NCBI GenBank assembly: GCA_044221725.1
Contig: JBGAON010000001.1
Coordinates: 335,480 to 399,479 of the forward strand
Length of the DNA stretch: 64,000 nucleotides
DNA from: Elusimicrobiota bacterium
GTDB taxonomy: Bacteria; Elusimicrobiota; Elusimicrobia; F11
Direction: 5' to 3'
Shown: positions 41,953 through 61,528 of the stretch, piece by piece
Numbering within the stretch: position 1 is the first letter of the stretch
How the letters are laid out: each line of letters opens with the position of its first letter
Notes under the pieces: model-generated
What the model was told of the DNA's origin: nothing
Databases searched by the model: none
What the model saw: only the letters and a program-made list of their open reading frames with translations
Program-made: the position numbers and the translations under genes

Positions 41953-41991
41953 CGGATTGGATGAATAGTCTTAACACGGAGGAGTGTTCAC

Positions 41992-42696: not shown

Positions 42697-42759
42697 ATCT
42701 TCGCTTTGCCCCGTTCCGTCGTTCGCCTTGGCGAGCGGCGGAACGGGACGGAGATTTGA

Positions 42760-45150: not shown

Positions 45151-45204
45151 AAAAATTTCTTGTGCGAGCGCACCTTGATTTAATATTTTGTGCGTGGAGA
45201 ACCT

Positions 45205-46104: not shown

Positions 46105-46145
46105 CCGGCGAAGAAAATTTTTTGATCGAATTAAAGCGCTTGAAT

Positions 46146-47423
46146 ATGAATGGACATCGGAGAACAACAGTTGATTTAAATTTTTGGGTGATGCCGAATG
46201 CGGGTATCGCCACGCGGCATATTTTAAAAAGCTTTATCGATGAGTTTGAGCAGCTTCATCCGGAAGTTCGCGTCAATCTCGTAATCCACCCATGGTCGCT
46301 GGCGTGGAATCGGGTCATGGATGTGGTGAAAGGACGCAACACGCGCAGTGTTCCCGACGTCATGCAAATTGGAACTACCTGGGTTACCACTCTTGGTTAT
46401 CTGGGAGCGCTCGAAGAAGTCCCCGACGTTCCGTTCGGGCCACGGGATCAACGCATTGCCACATCCATCGGAGATTCAAGTGCGTTTTGTATTCCGTGGT
46501 TTATCGACATTCGGGTGCTGTATTACCGAAAAGATATTTTTCAGGCGTTTCGAATTGACCCGGCACTTCTAAACGATTGGAAGGGGTTTGCGCGGGCGTG
46601 CGCGGAACTCAAAAAAAACCTTTCAAGCAAGTCCGGCAAATTCTCTCGGATCATTGCGCCCTTGGGGATTCCGGGGCAAAAGCCCGGCGTTTTGATGCAC
46701 GACTTGGCCCCGTGGGTGTGGGAAGCGGGTGGCGACTTTTGCGCCGATGATTTGCGCGACACGAATTTAAATCAGGCGACGCTCATCGACGGATGCAAAT
46801 TTTATTTTGACCTCATCGATCAAGGTTTTATGCCGGTGCCAAACAGCGCCTTGCCGGCCGGAAATTTTTTCACGGGACATTACGCCATGCAGTTTTCGGG
46901 CAGCTGGCCGATCGATTCTTATTTGAATCCGACGTGGACCTACGCTGATCCCGACGTTGCAGCAAACGCCGGAGTGATGCCACTTCCCGAAGGACCTCAG
47001 GGGCGATACACGTTTTTGGGCGGCAGCAATTTGGCGGTACCGTCCTCGGCTCGGCATCGTGAAATCGCCTGGGAATTTGTGAATTTTCTTGTCGACCCTG
47101 TCCGGATCGTCAAGCATGCTCGGGGCATTGGTGCGTTACCCGCACGGCTGTCCGGTATGGAAAACTTGTTTGAACGGTTCCCGGCGGCCAAAGAAGTGTT
47201 TTTTAGTTCGTTCGGTTACGCGCGGCGTTTGCCCCGACTTGTGGAGCTCGGATCCATCGAGCAGATTATCTACAAGATGGGCGGTCGTTTGCTGTCCGCC
47301 GTTCGCGAAGGCTCTTACAACCAGAAGCGACTCCAGCAAGAAATAAACACCGCGAACAATGAAATTCGCTCGTTGCTGTCGATACACCGGTATGGTACGC
47401 GAATTTCGCAGGTAACCGCATGA
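46146..47423 (+). CDS. family-1 solute-binding-protein homologue lacking an obvious signal peptide
   Basis: MalE/UgpB-like conserved N-lobe (NLVIHPWSLAWNRVMD...TWVTTLGYLGALEEV). No hydrophobic leader at either candidate start (46092 or 46146). Stop overlaps the downstream GGDEF gene start (ATGA). Confidence 0.55.
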   Translation: MNGHRRTTVDLNFWVMPNAGIATRHILKSFIDEFEQLHPEVRVNLVIHPWSLAWNRVMDVVKGRNTRSVPDVMQIGTTWVTTLGYLGALEEVPDVPFGPRDQRIATSIGDSSAFCIPWFIDIRVLYYRKDIFQAFRIDPALLNDWKGFARACAELKKNLSSKSGKFSRIIAPLGIPGQKPGVLMHDLAPWVWEAGGDFCADDLRDTNLNQATLIDGCKFYFDLIDQGFMPVPNSALPAGNFFTGHYAMQFSGSWPIDSYLNPTWTYADPDVAANAGVMPLPEGPQGRYTFLGGSNLAVPSSARHREIAWEFVNFLVDPVRIVKHARGIGALPARLSGMENLFERFPAAKEVFFSSFGYARRLPRLVELGSIEQIIYKMGGRLLSAVREGSYNQKRLQQEINTANNEIRSLLSIHRYGTRISQVTA

Positions 47424-48982
47424 GCCAATTTCGTGCCCTCTTGGTATACGAAGAATTGTTGCGCTGTTTTCAGAACCACATGACGGCCTCGCACTTGGGA
47501 ATGGAACAGGCCTTTGAGTCGGGTTTTGGCTATTTGGCTTCGCGTCTGCGCCTCGAGCATGTGAGTTTGTTTTGGTGGGACCCTCATCGGCACGCGTTTA
47601 CCATGCAATATATTTTGCAAGACGGCGCGCTCATGGAAGGCGAGGATGAGATCGTCGTTGATGAGACAAGCGCGCTGCGTCCGTTGATTCAAGAGCGACG
47701 TCCGGTCGTTGTTTCCGAAAAGAAACCGTGGGCTGCGTTTCTACCGCTACAAATTGGAACGGAATTGTTGGGGGCGGTTCGACTGCAGCGGGCGCATCCG
47801 TTACCGAAAGGAAAAGTTTTGCTTCCGCTTTCACCGCTTATTACTCCGCTCGGTTCCCGAGCGAACGGGAATGGCAAACACTCGACAAAAGATCGGCTCA
47901 TGCCGTTTCTCGAAGACCTTGGCGACATATTCTCGATCCGATTTCATCAGTTGATTCGTGATGAAAAACACAAAAAGAAGGCCCAGGTTCTTCAAGCCAG
48001 CTCCGAAGTTGCGACCGCTGTTTTTGAGCGGCCGCGCTTGCGCGATATGTTGGAAGCGGTTTCCCGCAGCATTGTGCGAAATCTCGGGTTTGATCGCGTG
48101 CGCGTGTTTCTTGTGGACGTTGAGCAAACAAAACTCGAAGGAATTCTCGGACTGCAAATTCCCGACATGCTATTGGACATGACGGGCGAAAGTTATCCGC
48201 TGAGACCCAACACGAATTCGTTGGTTGACATGGTTCTCTCAGCAAAAGGGGCGTCGCACGTTCATCTCGTGGGGGGCCGTGTGGTTTACGTGCCGCTGAT
48301 TGTGAATAGCCAAGTGATTGGTTGTTTGGCGGCCGATAACTTGCTCAGTCAGCAATTGATAGACGAGGAGCAAATGGAAGCGCTTCGCACACTTACCGGC
48401 CAGATAGGCATGGCCGTGTTGAACGCGCGACTCTTCGAAGACATTGAACAGCAAGCGATCACGGACGGATTAACAAAGCTTTATGTGCACCGGTACTTCC
48501 AGCAGCGTCTCAAGGAAGAGATTGATCGCGCGGATCGCTACTCGTACAACATTGCTTTGATCATGATGGATGTCGATCACTTCAAGGCGCTGAACGACAG
48601 CCATGGGCATTTGATGGGCGACAAGGCGCTCGAGTATTTGTCGCAAGTGATTCGAAGCAACATTCGCCGAATCGATTTGGCCGCTCGGTATGGCGGGGAC
48701 GAGGTGGTGCTCGTTCTGCCGGAAATCACCGAACAGGAAGCGCTGCTGATGGGGGAGCGTTTGCTAAACGCAGTAAAAAAGGGAGTTCTTATTTCGTCGG
48801 ATGGGGCGAAGGTGCAAATGTCGGTTAGCATGGGTGCGGCGCTTTATTCGACGGACGCCCGCAACGCCCGGGACCTCATTGATGCGGCGGACAAAGCCCT
48901 GTTTTGGTCGAAGAAAAATGGGCGCGGCAACATCTGTTTCTACCGAACGATCCCCGCGCCGACCGAAAAAACAACGGCTTAA
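47420..48982 (+). CDS. GAF-domain diguanylate cyclase (GGDEF)
   Basis: Two GAF-like regions, then the GGDEF domain (DGLTKLYVHRYF...ALIMMDVDHFKALNDSHGHLMGDKAL...RYGGDEVVLVLP), active-site variant GGDEV. No TM segment. Confidence 0.85.
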   Translation: MSQFRALLVYEELLRCFQNHMTASHLGMEQAFESGFGYLASRLRLEHVSLFWWDPHRHAFTMQYILQDGALMEGEDEIVVDETSALRPLIQERRPVVVSEKKPWAAFLPLQIGTELLGAVRLQRAHPLPKGKVLLPLSPLITPLGSRANGNGKHSTKDRLMPFLEDLGDIFSIRFHQLIRDEKHKKKAQVLQASSEVATAVFERPRLRDMLEAVSRSIVRNLGFDRVRVFLVDVEQTKLEGILGLQIPDMLLDMTGESYPLRPNTNSLVDMVLSAKGASHVHLVGGRVVYVPLIVNSQVIGCLAADNLLSQQLIDEEQMEALRTLTGQIGMAVLNARLFEDIEQQAITDGLTKLYVHRYFQQRLKEEIDRADRYSYNIALIMMDVDHFKALNDSHGHLMGDKALEYLSQVIRSNIRRIDLAARYGGDEVVLVLPEITEQEALLMGERLLNAVKKGVLISSDGAKVQMSVSMGAALYSTDARNARDLIDAADKALFWSKKNGRGNICFYRTIPAPTEKTTA

Positions 48983-49181: not shown

Positions 49182-50171
49182 ATGAGTTGGATTATGGGCA
49201 TGAAACGCAACGGCGTGCATTTCTTGAAATTCCTTTTCCTCGGGCTGATGTTGAACGCGGGGATTTCGTGCACAGCATCCGCTGCTTTTCAAGAAGCTCT
49301 CTGGGGCGCTCGCCCCGCTTCTCTTGTTGGTGCCTACACCGCTCTTGCCGATGACTCAAATTCGCCCGCCTACAACCCCGCCGGAATCAGCATGCTCTCG
49401 CAGAATGAACTCACGTTTATGTACGCCCGGCTTTTCTCGGGTGTTAATTTTTATGCCGGGGAAGACACCTCGCGTTTGGGTCTCGGTTATTTCAGTTTCG
49501 CTCCAAACATTCGGGACAAGAAATACGGCAGTTACGCGATCAGTTGGAGCAATTTCGCCGCCACAAATCTTTACCGTGAAGACACTCTTACTTTTACCGC
49601 CGCCGATTCGTACCAGTTTGAATCGGTAAATTCCAAACCGATTTTATCGTATGGCGCGAATTTGAAATTCTTGCGCCGTTCGTTTTCGACCGATCAACGC
49701 ACGGACCAAGATCCCGTGTTCAAAAACGGGCGGGATTCAACAGGGGTAACACTTGATGCCGGTCTTCAATTGCGCCCGAACTGGAACGTTTTGCCCGGTT
49801 TGCGTTTCGGTTTAACCGGACAAAATTTAACCGAACCCGACATTGGTTTGGCCGCTACCGATCGCGTCCCGCTCCGCGTGGCTTTTGGCGCCGCTTACCA
49901 AGATCCGAACCTTCCGCTTTTTGGCCCCGCTGTGGAAATTTCTCAGCGCTCGGGTCGCACGCTCGTTACGGGCGCCTGGGAAACGTGGGTCTCAAAAAAC
50001 ACGCTCGCGTTTCGCGCCGGTGCGAACGCCGATGAAATCGGCGGCGGCGTGGGATATCAATTTCGTCTGCTAAGCAAAATGATGATGCGTTTCGATTACG
50101 CGATTCTGTGGCCGCTGAACATTGACGGCACCAACGGAAGTCATCGCGTGTCGATCTCAGCATCGTTTTGA
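49182..50171 (+). CDS. outer-membrane beta-barrel protein, FadL/PorV/PorP-SprF-like
   Basis: Signal peptide (alternative start ATG 49200 MKRNGVHFLKFLFLGLMLNAGISCTASA). NPAG motif (SPAYNPAGIS). C-terminal aromatic residue (...RVSISASF) typical of OM beta-barrels. ~300 aa mature. Confidence 0.55.
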   Translation: MSWIMGMKRNGVHFLKFLFLGLMLNAGISCTASAAFQEALWGARPASLVGAYTALADDSNSPAYNPAGISMLSQNELTFMYARLFSGVNFYAGEDTSRLGLGYFSFAPNIRDKKYGSYAISWSNFAATNLYREDTLTFTAADSYQFESVNSKPILSYGANLKFLRRSFSTDQRTDQDPVFKNGRDSTGVTLDAGLQLRPNWNVLPGLRFGLTGQNLTEPDIGLAATDRVPLRVAFGAAYQDPNLPLFGPAVEISQRSGRTLVTGAWETWVSKNTLAFRAGANADEIGGGVGYQFRLLSKMMMRFDYAILWPLNIDGTNGSHRVSISASF

Positions 50172-50231
50172 TCAGCAGATGAATGTTGTTCAGGCTTTGT
50201 AGAAAAGTAATTGGCTCAAAGGAGAGCAAAA

Positions 50232-51065
50232 ATGAAAAAGAAACTAGCAGTACTCGCGTTTGTCGCAACAGCGATCGGCGCATGGACGCCGTCGTGGGCG
50301 TTCCAGTTGGTTCAAATCGAAACAGTAACCGCGACGGCGGTGACAGGAGGAGCGAAGGTTGCGCGGTTTAACTTCGTTATTCGTGACGCTGCGAACGTAA
50401 ACGGCCCGAACCGTCCGAACCTCGGATGGTCCGGTGTTGATCCTCTGTCAACCCAATGGAAAATGTCAGATCAGGTTATCGTGATGGCTTCCACGGTTAC
50501 CGACGCTGCCGGTGGTATTCAGATCCACACCGACAACACGGCGGCCGATGCATCGCCGAAGTTTGTTGATCCGACCCCGGGCAACCTCATTAATCCAGAT
50601 TCGAACGCTGCCGGTTTGTTGCAGGGCACCTCGGGAGTAACGTCAACGGTTTTGCCGATGGCGTGGAGCATTAAGGACTCGTCGCGTACCGTTGAAAGTG
50701 GAACCGTCAATACCGGAATCGGCGCCGCCGATCCAAACAACGGCCCAATCACGGCGGTCTACAACACGAAGTATCAGTGGCTGTTCGTGACCGATAAATT
50801 CAACGTGCAAGGTATCGACTACAGCGGTGATGGGCTCGTAACGCCTGGTCCAAATTCTCCGGACGCCGCTCCGTTCGTGAATGGCGCCAAGTACATCACG
50901 ATGCGCAACTCGACCGGTATTCACTTCGGTCAAGCGGATGGTGAGTTTGCGTCGGTTCCTCAGGGACAAACGAACTATGTTTACTTCGAAGCCAACTTCT
51001 TGGGTTCGCAAGTGCAACAGACGTATCAAACAACGACTCTGCGTCTGGAAGCCTTCATCCAATAA
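50232..51065 (+). CDS. secreted protein sharing a C-terminal module with the 1325-aa surface protein
   Basis: Start at ATG 50232 with SD AAAGGAGAG. Signal peptide cleaved before AFQLVQIET. The region IQIHTDNTAADASPKFVDPTPGNLINPDSNAAGLL...MAWSIKDSS...YVYFEANF aligns to the last ~200 aa of 53165..57142. Confidence 0.6.
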   Translation: MKKKLAVLAFVATAIGAWTPSWAFQLVQIETVTATAVTGGAKVARFNFVIRDAANVNGPNRPNLGWSGVDPLSTQWKMSDQVIVMASTVTDAAGGIQIHTDNTAADASPKFVDPTPGNLINPDSNAAGLLQGTSGVTSTVLPMAWSIKDSSRTVESGTVNTGIGAADPNNGPITAVYNTKYQWLFVTDKFNVQGIDYSGDGLVTPGPNSPDAAPFVNGAKYITMRNSTGIHFGQADGEFASVPQGQTNYVYFEANFLGSQVQQTYQTTTLRLEAFIQ

Positions 51066-51068
51066 CGA

Positions 51069-51884
51069 TTGTTCGGAGTTTCGATCATGATTAAAACGCC
51101 AGAGTGGTGGAACCGAAAGGTTCCGCCACTCGGCGGTTTTTTCACGTTGCTTCTTTTGGCGGGTGCGCCCCCTGCGGCGCGCGCGTTCGAAATTGCGCCG
51201 TCTTACCAGTTGTTAAAGGCGCAGCCCGGGAAATCCGTGGACTCGCAATTAACATTAACGAACACCGACCAGGAAGAAATCAGCGTTGAACCAGAAGCCA
51301 AGGATTGGCAATCGCTCGAGGTGAACCGTGGGATCAAGGTGGCTGATTGGTTGTCTGTGGATAAGAAAATGTTTTTCTTGAAGCCCGGCCAATCGCGAAC
51401 CATTAAGTTCTCGGCGCGTGTGCCAAAAAATGCGCACGGCGAGCTTATGGGAATGCTTTCTTTTGCCACGAAAAAGGAATCGGCTCAATCCATCACGTTC
51501 AAACTGAGCTCAGCGGTTTATGTCGAAGTGGTTGGTACACAAAAGATCGACGCGCACGTGGACGCTATTACGATTCAATTGTCATCAAACACGCAGGTGG
51601 GATTGCTTGTGATCAATCGAGGGAACATCCATGTTCGTCCTCACTCCTACGTTCAGATTCTCAACGAAAAAAAGAGCCCGGTAGGCAACGTGGTCATTGC
51701 GCAGAATGAGCCTGTTTTCCCCGGAATACCAAAGCCAATTTTCGGAACCATTAGAAATTTTCGTTTGCCCGCGGGGACGTACACCGCACAGATTTCGATG
51801 CAAGACACGGACCACAACATGGAATTTCAGCCCGTGACAAAAAAGTTTTCGCTTTCGGAGAAAGGGGAGTTGACCGAAAAATAG
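51069..51884 (+). CDS. periplasmic hypothetical protein, possible PapD-like/Ig-fold chaperone-like
   Basis: N-terminal hydrophobic leader. Mature N-terminus AFEIAPSYQLL. Beta-strand-rich with LTLTNTDQEEISVEP and LKPGQSRTIKF, resembling pilus-chaperone N-domains. Weak. Confidence 0.3.
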   Translation: MFGVSIMIKTPEWWNRKVPPLGGFFTLLLLAGAPPAARAFEIAPSYQLLKAQPGKSVDSQLTLTNTDQEEISVEPEAKDWQSLEVNRGIKVADWLSVDKKMFFLKPGQSRTIKFSARVPKNAHGELMGMLSFATKKESAQSITFKLSSAVYVEVVGTQKIDAHVDAITIQLSSNTQVGLLVINRGNIHVRPHSYVQILNEKKSPVGNVVIAQNEPVFPGIPKPIFGTIRNFRLPAGTYTAQISMQDTDHNMEFQPVTKKFSLSEKGELTEK

Positions 51885-51890
51885 CTTTGT

Positions 51891-53165
51891 ATGAGAGACC
51901 GGAAACGTAAAAATAATTGGAGTGGCGGCTTCGCTCTGGTGCTTGGTTTGGCGCTGGCTGCTTTCTTGCGCCCTGTTTCTGCATTCCAGATTGTGCAGAC
52001 CTCCAATGTTACGTGCCGCGTGGTGATTGGCGGAGTTCCTCCGGGCAAATTGAAGTTCCAGCATAATCCTCTTCAAAAGGTTTCCCCGGTGGACGATATG
52101 ATCATTATCATGGGTCAGGCTGGTTCCGAAGTTTTACCGACCCAGCCCACGTACGAAGAGTCGCTTAAAACGAATTCGGATTTTGGGCCAGCAGAAGATC
52201 GGAAGATCCGCGTCGTTGTTCAATACCGATTTGTTCCCTCGCTCGATAATCAAGACTCCGTGCCGTTCGTAACGTCGAGCAATATCGAGGGTCCGGATCC
52301 TACACCGTTTGCTTTTCAAATTGATCCGGCGTCCGTTCAACCCGGTTTCTTCCAATATCGGTTTGTCGCAACCGGATTGAATTTCGTGAACGGGCAGCTT
52401 GTCCCGATTTCACAAACAACCGGAGAATTGTTTACGGTTGGTGTGCAGGCCAACGCAAGCCAGGTTTTCGGCCCGGCGGGCGGCACGTTTATTCTTGCGA
52501 ACGGAAACCAAGCAGTCGGCCAAACATCGTTGGCAATTCCTTCCGGTGTGTTTCGGCAGCCAACAACGGTTTCAATCGATGAGATTCCCTCGAATAGCCC
52601 CAGTGTTCCTGCTGGACTTAACAATCCAATCAGCGTGTTTCATCTTGATTCCGACGGGCCGGCACGCGGAATTTTCCAGTTATCGCTTGTGTATCCGGAC
52701 TTTGAATATCCGCGAGGTCGCGACGGGGTTGTTGATGGCACGAATATTCCGGTTCAAAACCTTTCAATCCAGTGGTGGGACGGGTTTGTGTGGCGCGGTG
52801 GCGGCGGGACAATCAACACAAAGACAAATACAATCTCGACGCGCATCAGCGCTTTGAGTTTCGTCGCAATAATGGCGGCGCCTGTGATGACGCCGGAGGA
52901 TCGGCGACCGCTGGAACGCGTGATCACACCGAATAGCGACGGCATTAACGATGTGCTCAATTTTGCGTTTGGTGATTTGGCCGAAGATGTAAAAGTGGAG
53001 ATTTTTGATGTCGGCGGTCACCGCGTGCGAACGCTTCATAGTTTGACAAACATGCAATGGGATGGTCGCGATGATGACGGCAAAGTGGTGGAAAGCGGTG
53101 TTTACATTTATCAATACGACGTCAACAGCAAACGCATCAGCGGCGTCGTCGCGGTGGCGAAATAA
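51891..53165 (+). CDS. secreted protein with T9SS type-B (gliding-motility-associated, CHU_C-like) C-terminal sorting domain
   Basis: Signal peptide cleaved before AFQIVQTSN. C-terminus ITPNSDGINDVLNF...VKVEIFDVGGHRVRTL...WDGRDDDGKVVESGVYIYQYDV matches the type-B CTD. Confidence 0.65.
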   Translation: MRDRKRKNNWSGGFALVLGLALAAFLRPVSAFQIVQTSNVTCRVVIGGVPPGKLKFQHNPLQKVSPVDDMIIIMGQAGSEVLPTQPTYEESLKTNSDFGPAEDRKIRVVVQYRFVPSLDNQDSVPFVTSSNIEGPDPTPFAFQIDPASVQPGFFQYRFVATGLNFVNGQLVPISQTTGELFTVGVQANASQVFGPAGGTFILANGNQAVGQTSLAIPSGVFRQPTTVSIDEIPSNSPSVPAGLNNPISVFHLDSDGPARGIFQLSLVYPDFEYPRGRDGVVDGTNIPVQNLSIQWWDGFVWRGGGGTINTKTNTISTRISALSFVAIMAAPVMTPEDRRPLERVITPNSDGINDVLNFAFGDLAEDVKVEIFDVGGHRVRTLHSLTNMQWDGRDDDGKVVESGVYIYQYDVNSKRISGVVAVAK

Positions 53166-56100
53166 TGGAAGCGAATAACTATTGTCGTCATTCCCGCGAA
53201 AGCGGGAATCTAGGTCTCAAGCAATTTTTTGAATTCAGGCTCAAAGCCTGGATTCCCGCTTTCGCGGGAATGACGTTATTGCTTTTGCCCGGACTGGTTC
53301 ATTCCGAAGCGACGAAGGAATATACGCGCGACGCCGGAATTTATAGCGCGAACCCGTTCAGTATCTTCACGTTCTCGTTTAGCTCGATCAACGTTGATTT
53401 TGATTCCACGTCGGACCCGAACCCGCCAGAGGGATTAAAAGTCGCGAGCACAACCGTCGCGACCCAATGGGGAGGATGGGGAATATTCAATACGACCGCG
53501 ATGGGCAACAACGTCGTTACCGATTTGAATTTTTCGGACTATGTGAACGGGCATTTGCGATTCTGGTTAAAAAGCCAAATTGCGCTTGATGTAAAGATCG
53601 AATATCAGCAGGGGTCGAATGCCGTGCAAGTTTCCAGCAGCGTGGCCAGCACAGGCAACGCGTGGAAAGAAATTGTAATTCCATTGCAGTCGGGTGGCTT
53701 TGGTCTAAACAACGGTCAGATGAACCGCATCCGTTCTCCATTTATTGTGGTGGCTCCGCAAACGACCGGCGTGCAAAAGCAATGGTTCATCGATCACGTG
53801 CGCTGGACAAAACCTGTCACGTCCATCGTTATGTATCCGCCGTCGACCACGGTTCAACAAGGTTTCCACCGCTTGTTTACCGCGGAAGGTCGCGATGCCG
53901 CGAACGAACGTGTCATTATTTACCCCACGTTCAGTGTTTCTCCGACGGTCGGAACATTTACTCCGGCTGACCCGACTCCGGTCACAGCGTCACGCTTGAA
54001 CGCGACCGGCGCGAGCGGCGTTGCAAACGCGGTTTTTTCACCGCTATCGGCGTCCTCCGTGGTCACCATTACCGGATCTCACATTAATGACGAGCTTGGG
54101 TTGCTTAGTGAAACAATCCCGTCGTCGTTGATCCTTAATACTGACAGCGAGTTGGATGTGTCCTCGGGCGGCGGCGGGACGGATCCGGTGTTATTGGATG
54201 AATCGAGCAGTGATGTACGGGAGGGCGTGCGCCGTTTTAAAACGACCATCAGCGCGCAGCCGGCGAATGGCTTTAGCGGGTGGTTTATTCAATGGAGTAC
54301 GAACGCCGCGAACACGGTGACACGCGACATGAGCAATTATTACGACGGATCGTTGCGGTTCTGGTTCAAAGGTCCGGCCGCTCTACAAAACGTACTCCAG
54401 ATTTCTGTTCGGTCCGGAAATACCGAAGCGGGCACCGAACTATCAAAAGTGAATCTCAAGAACTACGTGACGTTCGATGACACGTGGCGACCGGTTGTCA
54501 TTCCCATTTCCGATTTCACTGGTGCGCGGCCCAAAGCCGATTTGTCGCGCATGAAAATATTGTTCGGAGCTTTTGCGGTCGGTGCCGTTGGAAGCGTACA
54601 AACGTTCTATATCGATAATCTTCGCTGGGACACAAATATTCCCGGCGCGCTGGCATCGCTCACGGTGTCGCCAGCATCGGTGACGGTTCCGCTTTCAGCG
54701 AAACGCCAATTCGTCGCCAAAGGCTTCGACGCGAACGGCGTGTCCGTTGACATCTTCCCAACATGGACAATCACCGGTGGCATCGGTTCGGTAAACCCAT
54801 CGCAGGGGGCCATCACGCAATTGACCGCCGCCAGCTCCGCGCAATCGGGAACTCTCAAAGCCAGTCAAGGAGCGGTATCAGCGACCGCGTCGGTAAACGT
54901 GGCCGATGTTCAATGGGTGCAGTCGTTCAACGTGTATTCGGACAATGGGTCTGGCGGATTTGTTGGAGTTGCTAAGGGAACGAACAACGGCACCGTGATG
55001 AATTTGAGCGAGCAAAATTTGGGCGCGGGCGTGGCGCCCGAAGGAAAATTTGTGCGCCAATCGAACTACACACTCGTTAACAATCCGAATCTTCAAGACG
55101 CGTTCGCGATTTGGTTCACCAACGCGGACGCGGGCACCGGCTCGCGCTTCATGCATTACTTTGATACGGGCTATCTTTATTTTTGGGTACGCACGACTCA
55201 GGACCTACAAATCTCGATTCGCTCCGCCAACATAACAGCGGGGAACGAGCGTTCGAAATTTCGATTGAGTGAGCTTGGTGTTCCGCTCGACAACAATTGG
55301 CAGAAAGTGGTGATCGCGCTTGCCGATTTCAAGAACCGCGAACCGCTTTTGGATTTTGACCAGATTCAAACGTATTTCGCTATCGGCGCCGTGTCGTCGC
55401 AGATTGGGCCTGTTACGAACCAAACGTTTGACGTCGATGATGTGAAATGGCTCACGAACAATCCGGGCCAGCCCGACGACAACAAGATTTACATTGGTCT
55501 CAAAGAGAAACAGGCCGCGGGGGGGCTTGTGCGGTCGTTCGATACGTTGCTCGATGCGTACACCTACGATCAGGCGCTTGCCGCTATGAATTACACGTAC
55601 CGAAAGGACGTGGCGTTATCCAAAAAAGTTTTTGACGTTTATAAATATGTCCATGATAATTACGGCGGTACCTTCAGCGGTTTTCACGAGGATTACAACA
55701 TCAATTCGGCGGTGGGCGGGTACACGGTGCTGAATAGCAGTCGCGTCGCCGGGCCAAACGCTTGGATTCTTCTCGCGATGATTCATTACCGGAATGTAAC
55801 GGGTTCCACCGCGTACGACACGGTGATTAACGACGTGGCGGCGTGGTTGCGCGGATTGCAGGGGGCTGACGGTGCTGTGCAGTTTGGGCGTGTAAATTCG
55901 ACATTGATCACTCTTAAATCCACCGAACACAATTTCGATGTGGTGGCCGCGTTTCGCGCGTACGCAAAAATGAGTGGCAACAGTGCGTACAACAGTTACG
56001 CGGACGCCGCGCGCAATTGGCTTCAGACACAAATGTACGTTCCCGCCCAGCAACGTTTTAACGTGGGCACGTACGCGAACGGAACCACAAACACGGATCG

Positions 56101-57142
56101 TGCGCTCGACGCTTATTCGTGGGCCCCTCTCGCCCTTTCCTCCTTCACGAACGTGTTGACGACCGCCGAGACCGATTTCAAGAACACAAAGGTGTGTGAT
56201 TTGACGGGACTCAGTGTCACGGGATTTGATTTTTCGGGTCCACCCAACTTTGGCCCCGACTTGGACGCGGTGTGGTTGGAGGGAACAGGCCAAATGGCGC
56301 TTGCCTATTACCTTACCGACAATCTCGCGAAAGGCGATTTTTACCTGCAAGAGCTCGATAAAGCGATCGTGAACACGTCCGCCAACGGCCAGGGCATGGC
56401 GTACGCGACGAACAACGGCACCGCCTACGGTTTTAATATGAATTCGCTGAATCCAGCCATAAGTTCAATGGCGTGGTATCTGTTTGCAAAGCAGAAATTC
56501 AATCCGTTCAAGCCTTATCCGATTTATGAGTTAAAAATCATGGACACGGCGTCCGGGACCGAACGTTCGTCGGTTGGCTTTACGGTTTCGGTTCCCGCGG
56601 CATGGGTGCGAGCGGATCAATACATCAAGCTCGATGTGCAACCGAATTCGGTCGATCCGTGGGGCTTGCAAATTTTGACGGATAACACGCAGCCAACCGT
56701 GGTTCCTCGTTTTGTTGATCCCACGCCGGGAACAACGTCCAATTCGGACTCGAATCCAGCGGGACTCCTTTTGGAATTGACCGGTCAAACAACAACGCCG
56801 TACCAAATCAACATGGCGTGGAGCGTCAAGGATACGAGCGCAACCGCCACCATGCCAATCGCAACCGATCCAAATTCCGGCGCGCCAAACTCCTTTCAGT
56901 GGATTTTTATGAAAGACCGCGCGACTCCAGACATTCCTTCAATGAACACGGTCGCGTTTGCGAACGGGCAAGATGATGTGATTGTTCGAAAAGCCGTGAG
57001 CGGAAGTCATACGTCCCAGGGACCTGCCGGATACACCGCTTCCGTTTCGCCGGACTACTTATTTCTAGAAGCAAATTTTAATTCCGCTGCGGCCCAGGTC
57101 CGCTACTTAGCGCATATCACGTTCGAATTTTTCCTGCAATGA
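53165..57142 (+). CDS. 1325-aa secreted multidomain surface protein (3 CBM-like beta-sandwich modules, 2 Big_2 Ig-like domains, alpha/alpha-toroid-like domain, C-terminal shared module)
   Basis: ATG overlaps the upstream stop (TAATG), but the first 35 codons are the translation of the palindromic element (SRESGN / IPAFAGMT). A more plausible start is ATG 53270. Repeated ...LRFWLKS / LRFWFKG / LYFWVRT modules. Big_2 segments (TVSPASVTVPLSAKRQFVAKGFDANG). Central GPNAWILLAMIHY...TG module. Last ~200 aa paralogous to 50232..51065. Confidence 0.6.
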   Translation: MEANNYCRHSRESGNLGLKQFFEFRLKAWIPAFAGMTLLLLPGLVHSEATKEYTRDAGIYSANPFSIFTFSFSSINVDFDSTSDPNPPEGLKVASTTVATQWGGWGIFNTTAMGNNVVTDLNFSDYVNGHLRFWLKSQIALDVKIEYQQGSNAVQVSSSVASTGNAWKEIVIPLQSGGFGLNNGQMNRIRSPFIVVAPQTTGVQKQWFIDHVRWTKPVTSIVMYPPSTTVQQGFHRLFTAEGRDAANERVIIYPTFSVSPTVGTFTPADPTPVTASRLNATGASGVANAVFSPLSASSVVTITGSHINDELGLLSETIPSSLILNTDSELDVSSGGGGTDPVLLDESSSDVREGVRRFKTTISAQPANGFSGWFIQWSTNAANTVTRDMSNYYDGSLRFWFKGPAALQNVLQISVRSGNTEAGTELSKVNLKNYVTFDDTWRPVVIPISDFTGARPKADLSRMKILFGAFAVGAVGSVQTFYIDNLRWDTNIPGALASLTVSPASVTVPLSAKRQFVAKGFDANGVSVDIFPTWTITGGIGSVNPSQGAITQLTAASSAQSGTLKASQGAVSATASVNVADVQWVQSFNVYSDNGSGGFVGVAKGTNNGTVMNLSEQNLGAGVAPEGKFVRQSNYTLVNNPNLQDAFAIWFTNADAGTGSRFMHYFDTGYLYFWVRTTQDLQISIRSANITAGNERSKFRLSELGVPLDNNWQKVVIALADFKNREPLLDFDQIQTYFAIGAVSSQIGPVTNQTFDVDDVKWLTNNPGQPDDNKIYIGLKEKQAAGGLVRSFDTLLDAYTYDQALAAMNYTYRKDVALSKKVFDVYKYVHDNYGGTFSGFHEDYNINSAVGGYTVLNSSRVAGPNAWILLAMIHYRNVTGSTAYDTVINDVAAWLRGLQGADGAVQFGRVNSTLITLKSTEHNFDVVAAFRAYAKMSGNSAYNSYADAARNWLQTQMYVPAQQRFNVGTYANGTTNTDRALDAYSWAPLALSSFTNVLTTAETDFKNTKVCDLTGLSVTGFDFSGPPNFGPDLDAVWLEGTGQMALAYYLTDNLAKGDFYLQELDKAIVNTSANGQGMAYATNNGTAYGFNMNSLNPAISSMAWYLFAKQKFNPFKPYPIYELKIMDTASGTERSSVGFTVSVPAAWVRADQYIKLDVQPNSVDPWGLQILTDNTQPTVVPRFVDPTPGTTSNSDSNPAGLLLELTGQTTTPYQINMAWSVKDTSATATMPIATDPNSGAPNSFQWIFMKDRATPDIPSMNTVAFANGQDDVIVRKAVSGSHTSQGPAGYTASVSPDYLFLEANFNSAAAQVRYLAHITFEFFLQ
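53187..53274. repeat. MITE-like palindromic element: perfect 24-bp terminal inverted repeats flanking 40 bp
   Basis: GTCATTCCCGCGAAAGCGGGAATC (53187-53210) and its exact reverse complement GATTCCCGCTTTCGCGGGAATGAC (53251-53274). Each arm is itself a hairpin (ATTCCCGC-GAAA-GCGGGAAT). The central 40 bp contains a further hairpin AGGCT-CAA-AGCCT. Confidence 0.75.
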
Positions 57143-59319
57143 TTCTCGATCCGTCGCCGATTTCTGCGTCCGATCGAAAGTTAAAACATCCTTCCGCAGA
57201 AAAGAAATCGGGGCGGCGCGAAAAGGTCGGATTTGCGTTGCTGATCCTGTTGGCGTTTGTCGGGTCTTTCGGCATCTGGAGATGGGAGCCGAAATGGGCC
57301 AAGCCATCCGTCCCGCCCGTTGAAAAGCCGCTGGTACGGCTTCCCGTGCCAGACACCATCGATGAGCGCCACCGCGAACACATTAAAAACGTTTTGTCGG
57401 TGATCGAATCCAACATCAATCCCGAAACCTACCTCGCCTACAGTTTCAGTGGAGACAAAAGACTCGAGTATTGGAGCGTTGTCTACGACAATTGCATTCG
57501 CGCGATCGTTCACTTGCAAACCGGACAGCCGGAGCTCGCCAAGAAAATAATCGACTACTTCATCGATAACACCGCGATCCAAAAAATCGGTTGGGTTCGG
57601 AAGAATCACCGGTTGGTGGCTCGGACGGGGTGGGTCATAAATATTGTCGATGCGTCGGAATCGCGTGCGGGCGGTCGTGGCATCGAACATATTGCGCATA
57701 CCGGCCCCAACGCTTACCTCGGAATTGCAGCGCTCCATATTTTTGAAGTGACGGGGGAGCAAAAATATTTGCGGTTCGCCAAGAAACAGTGGGAATTATT
57801 AAAGGATTTGCAGAACGAAGATCCGCAAGATCCGAATTTCGGCGGAATTCGTATGGGGCCCATGGGCAATCCCGCCAATCCACGCGAGCAGCGCTTGGAT
57901 TTTAAACCATCGAATCCGTCGTTCTATGAGTTTTATAACGGTGAGCATGCGGCGGATTTTAAAGCGTTTTCCGAACTCCTTTCGGTTTACGATCTCGAAA
58001 ATCAAGAACGCTATGAAAAAGCAGTGGATCTCATTGAGACGTGGGATCACCGAATTTACGATGCCGAAAAACATTTGTTTTATATCGGTACCACCGAAAA
58101 GAAATTTTTTGATCCAAACATCGGGCAATGGATAAGCGTCGGGGTAATTCCGATGTATCCACTCGATACAAGCTCGTTAAAGATTTCCGCCTATGGAGTT
58201 GATGGATTGGAACAGTTTGAGAAGAACGCCGCGCAGAAAATTCGCAAAGCGATCGATGACAACTTCAAGGTGACCGTGAGGATCCCCGATGGCAGCGGAG
58301 GTTTCAAGTCCGTTTCCGGTTATGACTTTGTTTGCAATTCGGACCGAGCGCGACTGATTCGCTTCGTTGAAATGGGACACTACGGCGACCGAAAAATAAA
58401 CGAAGGCATCGGACGCGAACCGCTGCTCAGTGACGAATGGTCGAATTGGGTAGCGCTCGCCGATCTTCGACTCACCGCTGACTTTGAAAAGAAAAACGAC
58501 AACCGAAAGGCCACGATGTATTCAAACGCTTACTATGAAAACGCGCTCGTGAGCTCGATGAAAACGTCGATGTCGGTCGATGGGGGGCTTGCATATCCCT
58601 ACGCGCAACCGCTGCCCGATTCGTTAAACAAGCCGGTCGGTTTCGGTTGGAACACACATCACGAGCCGTACGCGATCATTGGCGGTGCCGCGCGAATTCT
58701 GGGCATTTTGCGATTTGATCCGTTTCTCGCGCGTGGCGGGGATCGATCAACGACGGTCAATGTCGAGGTGAAGAAACTGGGCAGGCCCATCGGAGAAATG
58801 CGTGACAAGGCCGTACTTTACACCGAGGCCGAGCTGTATTTGCGCGATGCGTGGCGGGATTTGCGCGTGGCACAAATCAATGGACCGAAAGCGGAGTTGT
58901 ACTGGAGCTGTGCTCGAGCCACGTGTGAGAGGATGCTTCGTGAACACCAAGATTGGGTTGATGTGGCGATGTCGCAGAACAACAGTTTAAGACTCTCGCG
59001 GCAGCCATTTCCTCTCACGGGGGTTGCGAATTTGACGGAACGAGATTTGGAGCCGGTTTATCGAAAATATTGGGCGCTTTATCATATCGGCACCGCGGAA
59101 TTTATTTTGGTCGTTGCCAATGCGGGGCTGCGCGATATTTACCGCGAGCGCGGCGACGTTGGGCGTGCCGACGCATTGAATCTAAAAGCCATTGAAGCGG
59201 CAAAACGAATTAAAAAAGATTTTTGTTTTGCGCAGTCTTACGACGAGGGCGGTTGGTTATGGCAACCCGCGCAAGCCATTAACGAATACGTTGATCTCGC
59301 GGGGCCGATAAATCACTAA
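57139..59319 (+). CDS. membrane-anchored protein with alpha/alpha-toroid-like module
   Basis: ATGA overlap with the upstream stop. Single N-terminal TM (VGFALLILLAFVGSFGIW). Module GPNAYLGIAALHIFEVTGEQKYLRFAKKQWELL is paralogous to the central domain of 53165..57142. Confidence 0.5.
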   Translation: MILDPSPISASDRKLKHPSAEKKSGRREKVGFALLILLAFVGSFGIWRWEPKWAKPSVPPVEKPLVRLPVPDTIDERHREHIKNVLSVIESNINPETYLAYSFSGDKRLEYWSVVYDNCIRAIVHLQTGQPELAKKIIDYFIDNTAIQKIGWVRKNHRLVARTGWVINIVDASESRAGGRGIEHIAHTGPNAYLGIAALHIFEVTGEQKYLRFAKKQWELLKDLQNEDPQDPNFGGIRMGPMGNPANPREQRLDFKPSNPSFYEFYNGEHAADFKAFSELLSVYDLENQERYEKAVDLIETWDHRIYDAEKHLFYIGTTEKKFFDPNIGQWISVGVIPMYPLDTSSLKISAYGVDGLEQFEKNAAQKIRKAIDDNFKVTVRIPDGSGGFKSVSGYDFVCNSDRARLIRFVEMGHYGDRKINEGIGREPLLSDEWSNWVALADLRLTADFEKKNDNRKATMYSNAYYENALVSSMKTSMSVDGGLAYPYAQPLPDSLNKPVGFGWNTHHEPYAIIGGAARILGILRFDPFLARGGDRSTTVNVEVKKLGRPIGEMRDKAVLYTEAELYLRDAWRDLRVAQINGPKAELYWSCARATCERMLREHQDWVDVAMSQNNSLRLSRQPFPLTGVANLTERDLEPVYRKYWALYHIGTAEFILVVANAGLRDIYRERGDVGRADALNLKAIEAAKRIKKDFCFAQSYDEGGWLWQPAQAINEYVDLAGPINH

Positions 59320-61391
59320 TGCCCCGCTACTTCGGGTGGGGGAGCGGACGGAATTAATTTGTTCGCACGGCAGAACCAATAGACAAACAGAAAATCCGTC
59401 GATGGATAAATCTTCGCGCCGTCGCCTTTCAGGCGTCGCGGATTGCGTTGCCATAGGAAGGAATCTTTCGGTCGATGGGACACCGGAAGCGGTTCGCGAG
59501 AAAAGCCGCTCCATTCCCCGCCACCGATCGTGTCCGCCAGTTCACGATCGTGCGCATCCCAAAATTCTTTTCCATATCCGTGACGGTTTTCCGGGTAAAG
59601 TGAAAGATCGCGCAGCACCTGTTCCATGTCGCCCTGCTCCTTTTTGGACGCAAGGCAATTGAACGCCGTAACCATCGGATTGTCTTCGCCGCGGTACGAA
59701 CTCCATTCCCGTTTCAGTAGGGAACGGTAACTCGCTTGAACCGTCGGATTTTTTTCCAACGAAATAAGATTCATGAGAGCCAGTGTTCCTAGGTAACCCC
59801 GGCGTTCCGAATTCGCGCGTGGATTGCCAGCGGTTAATTGCGTAAGTTCATCTTCAATCCCGTACCAATCGAGTGCCGTTTTCAGAAGTGCATCTTGCGA
59901 ATAAAGATTCTCCCGATAGTAATCGCGAAATGTCGATTTCTCCGTGATCTCGGCCGCGGTTTTCACAATGTGAAGCGAAATTAACGCGTTGGACGCCAAT
60001 ATTTTTAGATCGGAGAATTCTCGTAGGCGTTGACCATCCTCTTTTTTCGGAAACCGTTTTAAAAGTGTCGTCAGCATGTCCGCCAATTTGATTCCGGGAT
60101 ACTCTTTGTTTGTGTAGCGTTTGGGGAACAAGTCCTGACGATATTGTTCGCGCAGCACATCACGAACGCGCTCACCCAGCAGAAACACTCCGTTCATCGT
60201 AGGCAATGTCAATTCGAAACACCGTTGCTCGTCTTCCGCTTCAAGCGCCTTAATCACTTCTTTCATTCCGGGCCATAGTTCGCCGAACGGTAGGTAGCGT
60301 CGCGACATTTTGAGATTCTTGACGAACTGGTGAACGTCTTTTTTGTCGTCCAATAGTTTGCGAATGCCCGAGCGAATTTCCGACTCTGAAAGGTACGGCG
60401 TGAGACTGAACAATGTTTTGCTGCCGCTTTTTACGGCCAGATCATCACGCAAAAACTTCGTCGCGATACGGTCCACGTCATCTCTCATTTGCTTTTTTAG
60501 CGCGGGGTTCGTGATCCGCGGATAGGCGACGGACATCGCGAGAAAGAACGAAGTGTAAACGTCCTTGCTTGGAATTTTTGAAAACGGGTTTCCATCGACG
60601 TCGACGTAACGTGTGATGATGGGTTCGTCAAATGTTCCTTTGATCGCGTTGTGCAAGGTCGCGAGCCCATTTTCGAGCGCCTGATAGGTAAGCGCATCGC
60701 CGGTGGCCGCGTACTTCCATGCGAGCGACGTGACATAGAATCCGGTGTAGGTGGTGGCGTCGCCTGTCTCATCGGGCGCTCCGTTCAACTCCCGGGAAAC
60801 CACGAAGCCGTTTTCCAGATGATCATGCGCCAGCTTGTCGGCAAGGCGCGTTGCCTTCTGTTCAATCGCTGTTAGGGATACCTCAGAAAACCGCTCAAAT
60901 TGGATCGAACTGATTTCACCGTTCGCGAGCCCAATCCAGTACACACGCGGTTCGATTGTGTGTCGCTCCCGGCTTTCCATCGAAAACTCCAACCAGCGCG
61001 GCTCGTAGCGGTTGGGCCCCGAAAAATCTGCAATCTGGAGCTCGCGCTGCGCGATGAGTTTGTCGGTGGTTGTATCCCAGAGCTCAATTCGGAAAAGCCC
61101 GTAAGATGAAAACAATAATCCTTTCTTCGGATAATGACCGCGTCGCATTTCGAACGTGGCGCGATAGAGTCCGGGTTCCAGGAACAGCGGATCCTTAAGT
61201 CCCGAGATGGCGTAACCCGGACGATCCCGCTTGTAGTCCAACTCCCATCCTCGAAATCCCGCTTTTCCGACGGAGTGGAGGGCTTCTGTTTTTACAACGA
61301 TTTCTCGCACCATCGTGCGAGGAGGAGCGGTCACTTCGGCGGTCGCCGCGGCGGCCAGCAAAATTCCGACGAGAAAAGATGCTTTTTTCAT
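59316..61391 (-). CDS. secreted hypothetical protein, possible third alpha/alpha-toroid-like paralogue
   Basis: Start set at ATG 61391 (MKKASFLVGILLAAAATA signal peptide) with SD AAGGGA. Weak similarity of YTGFYVTSLAWKYAATGDALTY to the GPNA...TG module. Convergent with and overlapping the 3' end of the upstream gene. Confidence 0.4.
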   Translation of the reverse strand: MKKASFLVGILLAAAATAEVTAPPRTMVREIVVKTEALHSVGKAGFRGWELDYKRDRPGYAISGLKDPLFLEPGLYRATFEMRRGHYPKKGLLFSSYGLFRIELWDTTTDKLIAQRELQIADFSGPNRYEPRWLEFSMESRERHTIEPRVYWIGLANGEISSIQFERFSEVSLTAIEQKATRLADKLAHDHLENGFVVSRELNGAPDETGDATTYTGFYVTSLAWKYAATGDALTYQALENGLATLHNAIKGTFDEPIITRYVDVDGNPFSKIPSKDVYTSFFLAMSVAYPRITNPALKKQMRDDVDRIATKFLRDDLAVKSGSKTLFSLTPYLSESEIRSGIRKLLDDKKDVHQFVKNLKMSRRYLPFGELWPGMKEVIKALEAEDEQRCFELTLPTMNGVFLLGERVRDVLREQYRQDLFPKRYTNKEYPGIKLADMLTTLLKRFPKKEDGQRLREFSDLKILASNALISLHIVKTAAEITEKSTFRDYYRENLYSQDALLKTALDWYGIEDELTQLTAGNPRANSERRGYLGTLALMNLISLEKNPTVQASYRSLLKREWSSYRGEDNPMVTAFNCLASKKEQGDMEQVLRDLSLYPENRHGYGKEFWDAHDRELADTIGGGEWSGFSREPLPVSHRPKDSFLWQRNPRRLKGDGAKIYPSTDFLFVYWFCRANKLIPSAPPPEVAGH

Positions 61392-61528
61392 TTCCCTTGA
61401 GGGTATCCCCAAGAGTCTTCGTTTTCGAGTCGGTTGCCCGTCGAAAACGAGCCGAAAAGACTAAGTGTTGCTTTGCTCGGTCTTTGATAGCATTATCGCG
61501 GTCCAAAAAAACAAGATAGGGAGGATGT

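What the first reader, a model, noticed from the sequence alone, without database searches (positions are those of the whole stretch)
49182..61412. Modular cell-surface / secretion locus: PorP/FadL-like beta-barrel, three secreted proteins with a shared mature N-terminus, a T9SS type-B CTD cargo, a 1325-aa adhesin-like protein and two toroid-module paralogues
Eight consecutive genes are almost all translationally coupled (TAATG at 53165, ATGA at 57139, 4-nt gaps at 51065/51069 and 51884/51891). The first four encode a ~300-aa OM beta-barrel with an NPAG motif, a 277-aa secreted protein, a possible chaperone-like periplasmic protein and a protein ending in a gliding-motility type-B C-terminal sorting domain. 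Next come a 1325-aa protein built from 3 CBM-like modules, 2 Big_2 domains and an alpha/alpha-toroid-like module, then a TM-anchored toroid-module paralogue and a secreted paralogue on the opposite strand. In Bacteroidota, type-B CTD cargo genes are normally adjacent to a PorP/SprF-family barrel. Here the barrel is followed by extra proteins that share modules with one another, but no T9SS core genes are in the window. This looks like a self-contained surface glycan-binding or processing apparatus whose export or anchoring partner is the adjacent barrel, and it is possibly a new variant of type-B cargo attachment.
Basis: partly seen in the sequence, partly recalled or inferred. Interest (0 to 1): 0.8.

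Follow-up and report, generated by a model that had tools for sequence, protein, structure and literature searches.

The report
Usher-less chaperone-type surface fibre locus
This conserved five-gene operon of uncultured Elusimicrobiota most likely builds an adhesive surface fibre with a pilus-type chaperone, but it has no usher pore and instead pairs a small outer-membrane barrel with a tail domain otherwise known from Bacteroidota type IX secretion.

Summary
The genes and their tight spacing are real, but the block is not a self-evident T9SS cargo operon. The window comes from an Elusimicrobiota MAG.

The conserved unit is five genes, found in all 10 independent related loci:
- g1, a PorV/PorQ/PorP-like barrel that scores below every curated cut-off.
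- g2, a 277-aa protein from an unannotated family of 620 clusters.
- g4, which shares only its mature N-terminal strand with g2 and ends in a CHU_C domain.
- g5, a large protein with CBM-like modules.

A very stable hairpin follows g2 in 10 of 10 loci. No usher or T9SS core gene lies in any flank.

Best reading (confidence about 0.5): a chaperone-assisted, donor-strand-type fibre, with g5 at the tip, g2 as the shaft and g4 as the base docked on g1. The export route is unknown. g6 is an occasional accessory, and g7 is unrelated. The fibre-subunit assignment of g2 rests on weak fold matches and on architecture.

The parts
46092..47423 (+). Cytoplasmic solute-binding-protein-like gene; a conserved upstream neighbour and possible sensor partner of the diguanylate cyclase
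   Evidence: Pfam SBP_bac_1 4e-26. No signal peptide. Found directly upstream, together with the GGDEF gene, in L003-L005, L007, L009-L012, L016, L018 and L020.
47420..48982 (+). GAF-GGDEF diguanylate cyclase; a conserved neighbour and candidate c-di-GMP regulator of the locus (inferred)
   Evidence: Pfam GGDEF 4e-42 plus GAF. No transmembrane segment. 33-76% identical orthologues lie immediately upstream of the barrel in 13 related loci.
49194..50171 (+). g1: outer-membrane beta-barrel (325 aa), a distant member of the PorV/PorQ/PorP/UPF0164 superfamily; proposed docking site for the g4 C-terminal domain
   Evidence: UPF0164 scores 26.1 bits (cut-off 21.4). NF033709 PorV_fam scores 38 bits (cut-off 90). 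All 5 orthologues hit PorV_fam, PorV2 and PorQ, and 2 of 5 hit PorP/SprF. It is the most conserved protein of the locus (59-68% identity). It ends in a C-terminal Phe.
50232..51065 (+). g2: 277-aa secreted protein, proposed major fibre subunit. It has a signal peptide, a conserved ~20-aa N-terminal extension (FQLVQIETVTATAVTGG) and a beta-sandwich body.
51097..51142 (+). Intrinsic-terminator-like hairpin plus U-run, 32 nt after the g2 stop and overlapping the g3 signal-peptide codons; proposed attenuator that raises g2 expression above that of the downstream genes
   Evidence: dG -34.1 kcal/mol, z -6.6. An equally stable hairpin with a different sequence lies within 110 nt of the g2 stop in 10 of 10 complete related loci (also in the truncated L009). 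In most loci it is the most stable in ±4 kb.
51087..51884 (+). g3: periplasmic two-domain Ig-like chaperone with a PapD-like fold
51891..53165 (+). g4: 424-aa secreted protein. Its mature N-terminal strand resembles that of g2 and it ends in a CHU_C/type-B-like domain (aa 343-412). Proposed base or terminator subunit anchored on g1.
   Evidence: CHU_C 42.9 bits, TIGR04131 33.7 bits. Only columns 1-60 align with the g2 family (hhalign 93%). The N-terminal 20 aa are more alike within a genome than between genomes (8.6 against 5.5 of 20; permutation p 0.0012).
53165..57142 (+). g5: 1325-aa proposed tip adhesin or enzyme carrier. It has three CBM30-like modules, two Ig-like modules, a helical module, and a C-terminal g2-like domain (aa ~1121-1325; nt 56525-57139) without the N-terminal extension.
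   Evidence: g2 against the g5 C-terminus: 5e-22. Internal repeats. CBM30. In 38 of 39 multi-domain family representatives the domain is C-terminal and starts at profile position 35-59. Short versions, with one CBM plus the domain, occur in L017 and L020.
57139..59319 (+). g6: transmembrane-anchored 726-aa helical protein; an accessory gene translationally coupled to g5 and not part of the conserved core
   Evidence: ATGA overlap. A 67%-identical orthologue sits in the same position only in L005/L006. A 23%-identical relative lies upstream of g2 in L019. It is absent from L003, L004, L007 and L012. No family or PDB match.

Best explanation
The locus encodes a chaperone-assisted surface fibre (pilus) that is specific to Elusimicrobiota and assembled by donor-strand complementation.

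Proposed roles:
- g2 is the abundant shaft subunit. Its conserved ~20-residue N-terminal strand would complete the beta-sandwich of the neighbouring subunit.
- g3 is a periplasmic PapD-fold chaperone that caps subunits before assembly.
- g5 is the tip. In other genomes the tip is a ~400-aa protein made of one CBM plus the subunit domain. The tip carries carbohydrate-binding modules on a C-terminal subunit domain that can accept a strand but has none to donate.
- g4 is the base. It has the donor strand but no subunit body. Its CHU_C domain docks on the PorV/PorQ/PorP-like barrel g1, in the way type-B CTD proteins sit on PorP-like barrels.
- The hairpin after g2 sets a high ratio of shaft subunit to accessory proteins.
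- The neighbouring SBP-GGDEF pair may place the fibre under c-di-GMP control.

Shown here: the homologies, domain architectures, chaperone fold, synteny and hairpin.

Inferred: polymerisation, the order of subunits, g4-g1 docking, and regulation.

Unresolved: how subunits cross the outer membrane. There is no usher, and g1 is too small for folded subunits. Either g1 passes unfolded chains, as the FapF barrel does for amyloid subunits, or a separate secretion machine is used.
For: - The fold matches for g2 are weak, but they go almost exclusively to donor-strand fibre subunits. The best is the environmental fibril TLP-1b (PMC11494351).
- The g2 N-terminal extension is conserved (A23, F24 and A34 in over 90% of sequences) yet is not placed by AF2 (pLDDT ~55). 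The TLP-1 donor strand was reported to behave the same way.
- g5 ends in a g2-like domain.
- Across 1.8 billion proteins the family has three architectures. In the multi-domain forms the domain is always C-terminal and lacks the extension.
- The minimal tips are one CBM plus the subunit domain.
- g4 shares only the extension with g2, and the two vary together within genomes.
- g1-g2-g3-g4 plus a tip protein are found together in 10 independent Elusimicrobiota loci. This includes rearranged and distant ones: L017, L019 (Endomicrobium) and the P0067 locus.
- A hairpin follows g2 in 10 of 10 loci.
- g1 relates to the CTD-binding barrels PorV, PorQ and PorP.
- Type-B CTD proteins bind PorP-like barrels (PMC9143113).
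Against: - No usher was found, and no route across the outer membrane is identified.
- g3 shows no sequence match to the PapD families. Its nearest sequence family is WxLIP, which is not known to build polymers.
- My residue-coupling analysis (Meff 136) recovered core sheet contacts but gave no clear register for the N-terminal strand.
- The rest of the genome could not be searched.
- No complex prediction could be run.
Confidence: 0.5

Rival explanations
1. One reading: this is a T9SS type-B cargo operon. On this view g4, and perhaps g2 and g5, are exported by a type IX secretion system encoded elsewhere. g4 is then anchored on its cognate PorP/SprF-like barrel g1, and the other proteins are co-cargo.
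For: - CHU_C passes the Pfam cut-off in g4 and in its orthologues.
- The barrel family gives sub-threshold hits to PorV, PorQ and PorP models.
- Adjacent type-B CTD and PorP-like pairs are established in Bacteroidota (PMC9143113).
Against: - All related loci come from Elusimicrobia/Elusimicrobiota.
- No paper in the library links T9SS to this phylum.
- No T9SS core gene lies in the 64-kb window or in the flanks of 10 loci.
- The window barrel fails the PorP and PorV cut-offs, and TIGR04131 is just below its cut-off.
- g2 and g5 have no CTD.
- This view does not explain the PapD-fold chaperone, the shared subunit domain or the shared N-terminal strand.
Confidence: 0.15
2. A WxL-cluster-like, non-polymeric surface display complex. 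On this view the g2-type domain is a cell-envelope-binding module. It is carried alone (g2) or at the C-terminus of a large binding protein (g5). g3 is a WxLIP-like partner that stabilises it by inserting a strand. No fibre is formed.
For: - 13 of 13 g3 relatives give sub-threshold WxLIP_PGBD hits (best 1e-6).
- WxL clusters have the same logic: a small protein, a large protein with the same C-terminal domain, and a two-Ig-domain partner (PMC10599100).
Against: - g3 has no C-terminal transmembrane helix.
- No WxL-domain hit appears in 46 g2 relatives at E<=1.
- The host is diderm.
- The conserved N-terminal extension shared by g2 and g4 but absent from g5-type proteins is better explained by a polymer with a tip, shaft and base. 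So is the attenuator hairpin after g2.
Confidence: 0.2
3. A glycan-capture or glycan-processing outer-membrane complex without a fibre. On this view g5 and g6 act as surface enzymes or lectins, g1 is a FadL-like uptake channel for the products, and g2-g4 are accessory binding proteins.
For: - CBM30-like modules in g5.
- Helical modules of possible glycosidase type in g5 and g6 (only an insignificant GH47 hint, E 0.15).
- SBP-type genes nearby.
Against: - The barrel matches FadL in only 1 of 5 orthologues, at E 0.021.
- No catalytic family was detected.
- g6 is absent from most loci.
- The short tip proteins carry only one CBM.
- This view does not account for the chaperone fold or for the pattern of domain and strand sharing.
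Confidence: 0.08

Closest known systems
Chaperone-usher pili (Fim, Pap, Saf, Csu, CFA/I)
   Same: - A small abundant subunit with an N-terminal extension.
- A tip protein made of a lectin or CBM part followed by a C-terminal subunit domain without the extension.
- A base protein that has the extension only.
- A stem-loop after the major-subunit gene.
   Different: - No usher.
- The outer-membrane component is a ~300-aa PorV/PorQ/PorP-like barrel.
- The base subunit ends in a CHU_C domain.
- The subunit is larger (~250 aa) and belongs to an unannotated family.
- There is no sequence match to PapD_N or PapD_C, or to known pilins.
T9SS type-B CTD protein / PorP-like barrel pairs (PG1035-PorP, SprB-SprF)
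   Same: A protein ending in a CHU_C (PF13585) domain is encoded in the same operon as a barrel of the PorV/PorQ/PorP superfamily. Docking of the CTD on the barrel is the likely common principle.
   Different: - The host phylum is Elusimicrobiota.
- The barrel is below every curated cut-off.
- No T9SS core genes are nearby.
- The pair is embedded in a chaperone-plus-subunit operon.
WxL / WxLIP cell-surface clusters of Firmicutes
   Same: There is a small protein, a large protein carrying the same domain at its C-terminus, and a two-Ig-domain partner. g3 is a consistent sub-threshold DUF916 relative. WxLIP is predicted to insert a strand into its partner.
   Different: - No WxL domain.
- No transmembrane helix on g3.
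- A diderm host, with an outer-membrane barrel and a CTD protein.
TLP-1a/b freshwater fibrils (CryoSeek) and TasA-type donor-strand fibres
   Different: The match is weak and there is no sequence similarity. The reported TLP-1 relatives are from Flavobacteriales, and the genes that build TLP-1 are unknown.

Membership tests
T9SS type-B CTD cargo with PorP/SprF partner | C-terminal domain matching TIGR04131 / Pfam CHU_C | tested here: met
   PF13585 scores 42.9 bits (cut-off 27) at aa 343-412. Orthologues score 40.6 and 40.8 bits. TIGR04131 scores 33.7 bits, just under its cut-off of 35.
T9SS type-B CTD cargo with PorP/SprF partner | Adjacent barrel is a PorP/SprF family member (TIGR03519 / PF11751) | tested here: not met
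   The window barrel gives no PorP hit at E<=0.1. Only 2 of 5 orthologues hit TIGR03519 (best 3.9e-9), below the curated cut-off.
T9SS type-B CTD cargo with PorP/SprF partner | T9SS core machinery (SprA, PorK/L/M/N, PorU/V) present in the genome | not testable with these tools
   Only 64 kb of the genome is available. None is present in the window or in the ±10 kb flanks of 10 related loci. The hosts are Elusimicrobiota.
PorV/PorQ family (NF033709) | Score above the curated cut-off of the family model | tested here: not met
   38.2 bits against a cut-off of 90. All 5 orthologues hit, but below the cut-off (best 3e-14). Pfam UPF0164 is passed narrowly (26.1 against 21.4).
FadL/TodX transporters (PF03349) | Match to the Toluene_X model | tested here: not met
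   Only 1 of 5 orthologues hits, at E 0.021.
Chaperone-usher pilus system | Periplasmic PapD-like two-domain chaperone | tested here: met
   [not shown]
Chaperone-usher pilus system | Outer-membrane usher (PF00577) encoded with the chaperone and subunits | tested here: not met
   No usher is present in the window ORFs scanned or among the called genes of 10 related loci. The rest of the genome was not searchable.
Chaperone-usher pilus system | Subunits with an incomplete Ig-like fold completed by a donor strand | tested here: inconclusive
   [not shown]
Chaperone-usher pilus system | Tip adhesin made of a binding domain plus a C-terminal subunit domain lacking the N-terminal extension | tested here: met
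   g5, and 38 of 39 multi-domain family representatives, carry the domain at the extreme C-terminus starting at profile position 35-59. The minimal forms are one CBM plus the domain.
WxL / WxLIP cluster | WxLIP: DUF916 plus DUF3324 plus a C-terminal transmembrane helix | tested here: not met
   DUF916 hits are consistent but below the cut-off (13 of 13; window 22 bits against 27.3). There is no DUF3324 hit, and g3 has no C-terminal transmembrane helix.
WxL / WxLIP cluster | WxL domain in the small and large partner proteins | tested here: not met
   No WxL-domain hit appears in 46 g2-family members at E<=1.
TLP-1 / TasA-type donor-strand fibre subunits | Significant fold or sequence similarity of the subunit | tested here: inconclusive
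   [not shown]

The most novel reading that the evidence does not exclude
This would be a previously unrecognised pilus-biogenesis pathway of diderm bacteria. A PapD-fold chaperone feeds donor-strand subunits to an outer-membrane platform that is not an usher. The platform is a small PorV/PorQ/PorP-like barrel together with a base subunit bearing a CHU_C domain. On this reading the CTD-barrel docking module known from type IX secretion works outside T9SS. The system links chaperone-usher pili, Gram-positive WxL/WxLIP clusters and T9SS attachment complexes, and it may be the kind of machinery that builds orphan environmental fibrils such as TLP-1.
Probability: 0.35. Interest if true: 0.85.

Novelty: new variant of a known kind. 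Interest (0 to 1): 0.7.

Why it matters
- All known chaperone-dependent donor-strand pili of diderm bacteria need a large usher pore. A conserved operon with the chaperone, shaft, tip and base logic but a T9SS-like barrel and CTD pair in place of the usher would add a new assembly route.
- It would show that the CTD-barrel anchor is older or more mobile than T9SS itself.
- It would give a function to a 620-cluster unannotated protein family in a phylum with almost no cultured members.
- It offers concrete candidates for matching orphan cryo-EM fibrils from the environment to their genes.
- It identifies likely carbohydrate-binding adhesins of Elusimicrobiota, including termite-gut Endomicrobium.

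Tried and rejected
- Sequence searches of g1, g3, g4, g5, g6 and g7, and of the g2 and g3 profiles, against PDB found nothing meaningful. The ETV6 hits to the g3 profile are repeat artefacts.
- The afdb50 fold library was unavailable.
- A single-sequence homologue search for g3 found only itself. A three-sequence profile was needed.
- The genome scan with the g2 alignment failed because no stretch was conserved enough. The barrel alignment was used instead.
- Pfam on g5 sub-segments gave no Big_2 hit and no toroid or glycosidase family. g6 and g7 remain unassigned.
- Paralogy between g6 and g7 was rejected.
- Mean-field coupling analysis of 145 full-length g2 relatives recovered core sheet contacts. 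One N-terminal-strand pair ranked 11th (T35-F184). No diagonal stood out (best z 3.2 among 428), so it neither supports nor refutes strand insertion.
- The CryoSeek paper has no supplementary text on file, so TLP-1 sequences could not be compared directly.
- The OmpA protein upstream is a generic OmpA_C protein and not specifically PorE-like.
- Literature searches found no description of this system.

Full report
**Observation.** ORF listing confirms eight ORFs at 49182-61412. The junctions read from the sequence are TAATG at 53163-53167 (g4/g5), ATGA at 57139-57142 (g5/g6) and a 6-nt gap between g3 and g4. g2 most likely starts at ATG 50232, preceded by AGGAG. g3 most likely starts at ATG 51087, preceded by GGAG. 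Gene callers on an identical public contig chose the same starts. The window is chromosomal: it carries DnaB, alanine racemase, CysS and five tRNAs, at GC ~52%.

**Host.** Identical proteins lie on an 870,953-bp NCBI contig and on metagenome contigs. Every named relative of g2, g3 or the barrel comes from an Elusimicrobia/Elusimicrobiota MAG. All 11 loci found in 185,579 species genomes with the barrel probe are from this phylum. They include Ca. Obscuribacterium magneticum and Ca. Endomicrobium labiotermitis. This is not a Bacteroidota genome.

**g1, the barrel.**
- It passes Pfam UPF0164 narrowly (26.1 bits against 21.4).
- It hits NCBIfam PorV_fam at 38 bits, far below the cut-off of 90.
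- All five orthologues hit PorV_fam, PorV2 and PorQ. Two of five hit PorP/SprF, and one hits FadL at E 0.021.
- It is therefore a distant relative of the T9SS-associated barrels, but not a member of any of them.
- It is the best-conserved protein of the locus (59-68% identity).

**g4.**
- It has a genuine Pfam CHU_C domain (42.9 bits). TIGR04131 is just under its cut-off (33.7 against 35).
- Profile-profile comparison aligns g4 with the g2 family only over the signal peptide and the first ~25 mature residues (probability 93%).

**g2.**
- It belongs to an unannotated family with no consistent Pfam hit in 46 members.
- The family has 67 close relatives and 620 clusters among 1.84 billion representatives.
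- The AF2 model is confident (pLDDT 88.9, pTM 0.82), except for the signal peptide and the mature N-terminal ~20 residues (pLDDT ~55). Those residues are nevertheless conserved (A23, F24 and A34 in over 90% of sequences).
- Foldseek has no significant hit. Its top three are TasA, CfaB and CanA.
- TLP-1 is a freshwater fibril of unknown origin built by donor-strand exchange. Its donor strand was likewise left disordered by AlphaFold (PMC11494351).
- There is no sequence similarity to any solved structure.

**g3.**
- With a 13-sequence alignment the AF2 model is confident (pLDDT 88.9).
- At the sequence level all 13 members give sub-threshold hits to WxLIP_PGBD (DUF916). None hits the PapD families.

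**g5.**
- It contains three homologous CBM30-like modules, two related Ig-like modules and a helical module.
- Its last ~205 residues are homologous to g2 (5e-22).
- The alignment starts at the first core strand of g2, so the N-terminal extension is absent.
- The same holds across the family. Standalone proteins of 230-290 aa match the whole profile.
- In 38 of 39 multi-domain representatives (360-1393 aa) the domain sits at the extreme C-terminus and starts at profile position 35-59.
- The short versions consist of a signal peptide, one CBM-like module homologous to those of g5, and the domain. This is the architecture of FimH/PapG-type tip adhesins.

**Synteny.**
- HMMs of g1-g4 run over all fetched loci show g1, g2, g3, g4 and a tip-type protein together in 10 independent loci. 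Some differ in order or context.
- In L017 the order is g1-g2-g3-tip-g4. In L019 it is g2-g3-tip-g4-g1. The P0067 locus has two g2 paralogues in unrelated flanks.
- g6 is present only in L005/L006 (67% identity). A remote relative lies in L019.
- g7 and g8 have no counterpart anywhere.
- No usher or T9SS core family appears among the called genes of any locus.

**Shared N-terminal strand.** The mature N-termini of g2 and g4 resemble each other in each genome. One example is L015, with ATPVAGSARVFLASATTGG against ASPVPGSAQVFTAGVTVGG. They are more alike within genomes than between them (8.6 against 5.5 identities of 20; permutation p 0.0012). This result rests heavily on a few genomes.

**Hairpin.** A canonical terminator-like hairpin (dG -34.1 kcal/mol, z -6.6, followed by a U-run) begins 32 nt after the g2 stop. 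An equally stable hairpin with an unrelated sequence lies within 110 nt of the g2 stop in 10 of 10 loci. In most it is the most stable structure in ±4 kb. This fits a highly expressed major structural gene followed by less-expressed accessory genes. That is inference; papA-type operons behave this way, from my own knowledge.

**Interpretation.**
- The simplest model that uses all of these facts is a chaperone-assisted, donor-strand-type fibre.
- g5, or a short CBM protein, forms the tip: it has a groove but no donor strand.
- g2 forms the shaft: it has both a donor strand and a groove.
- g4 forms the base: it has only a donor strand, plus a CHU_C domain.
- g4 docks on the barrel g1, by analogy with type-B CTD proteins bound to PorP-like barrels (PMC9143113).
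- Polymerisation, subunit order and docking are all inferred.
- The step across the outer membrane is unexplained. g1 (~300 mature residues) is too small for folded 25-kDa subunits. Either it passes unfolded chains or another secretion system is used.
It does not explain the chaperone or the module logic, and it lacks T9SS genes and the right phylum.
- A WxL-like non-polymeric complex remains a serious rival because of the DUF916 signal (PMC10599100).

**Limits.**
- The coupling analysis was inconclusive.
- Literature searches found no description of such a system.

**Verdict.** This is a real, conserved, phylum-specific locus. It combines parts known from three different systems in a way not described before. 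I rate it a new variant of a known kind, with interest 0.7 and confidence about 0.5 in the fibre model.

Noticed in passing
window 53186-53275: A 90-bp palindromic MITE/REP-like element (29-nt arms, 97% complementary, each containing ATTCCCGCGAAAGCGGGAAT) sits in frame inside codons 8-37 of g5. It lengthens the signal peptide to ~47 aa. Orthologues have ordinary short signal peptides ending ..A|EATKE[YF]. A degenerate third copy of the core lies at 35435-35454.
   Followed up: partly
window 46092-48982: A solute-binding-protein-like gene without a signal peptide overlaps a cytoplasmic GAF-GGDEF diguanylate cyclase. The pair is kept directly upstream of the barrel in 13 related loci, including L005 and L020 where the farther flanks differ. 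This suggests c-di-GMP control.
   Followed up: partly
window 39988-46104: An envelope gene block (654-aa unknown, 234-aa unknown, OmpA_C protein, 222-aa unknown, DUF5683, 304-aa unknown) is conserved upstream in most loci. An OmpA-like gene and DUF5683 also lie upstream in the distant Endomicrobium locus L019. The 234-aa protein is paralogous to the N-terminal half of the OmpA protein.
   Followed up: partly
L007/L014 5837-7528 (L007 coordinates), and the P0067 locus: A PMT-family glycosyltransferase is inserted between the GGDEF gene and the barrel in Ca. Obscuribacterium magneticum. One also lies just upstream of the barrel in a distant locus. This hints that the fibre proteins may be glycosylated in some lineages.
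   Followed up: no
L003 17139-20825 and beyond: A giant ORF (8710 aa as called) follows the g5 orthologue directly in one related metagenome contig.
   Followed up: no
L019 3850-5313: A 487-aa protein 23% identical to g6 lies directly upstream of the g2 homologue in Ca. Endomicrobium labiotermitis. The helical g6-type module therefore recurs near the locus in distant lineages.
   Followed up: partly
window 18301-24078: A 1925-aa ORF whose only family matches are D-2-hydroxyacid dehydrogenase domains, embedded at aa ~1077-1405.
   Followed up: no
window 2306-3493: A 395-aa protein combines an internal FlgD_ig-like domain with an OmpA_C domain (a weak Lsa66-like hit). This shows that FlgD/CTD-like sandwiches occur here in non-C-terminal positions.
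   Followed up: no
window 59316-61412 (-) and 62090-63973 (+): g7 is a 698-aa secreted protein with no family match. The Lnb_N/DUF7843/DUF7840 protein is encoded downstream. Neither has a counterpart in any related locus, so both look like unrelated neighbours.
   Followed up: yes
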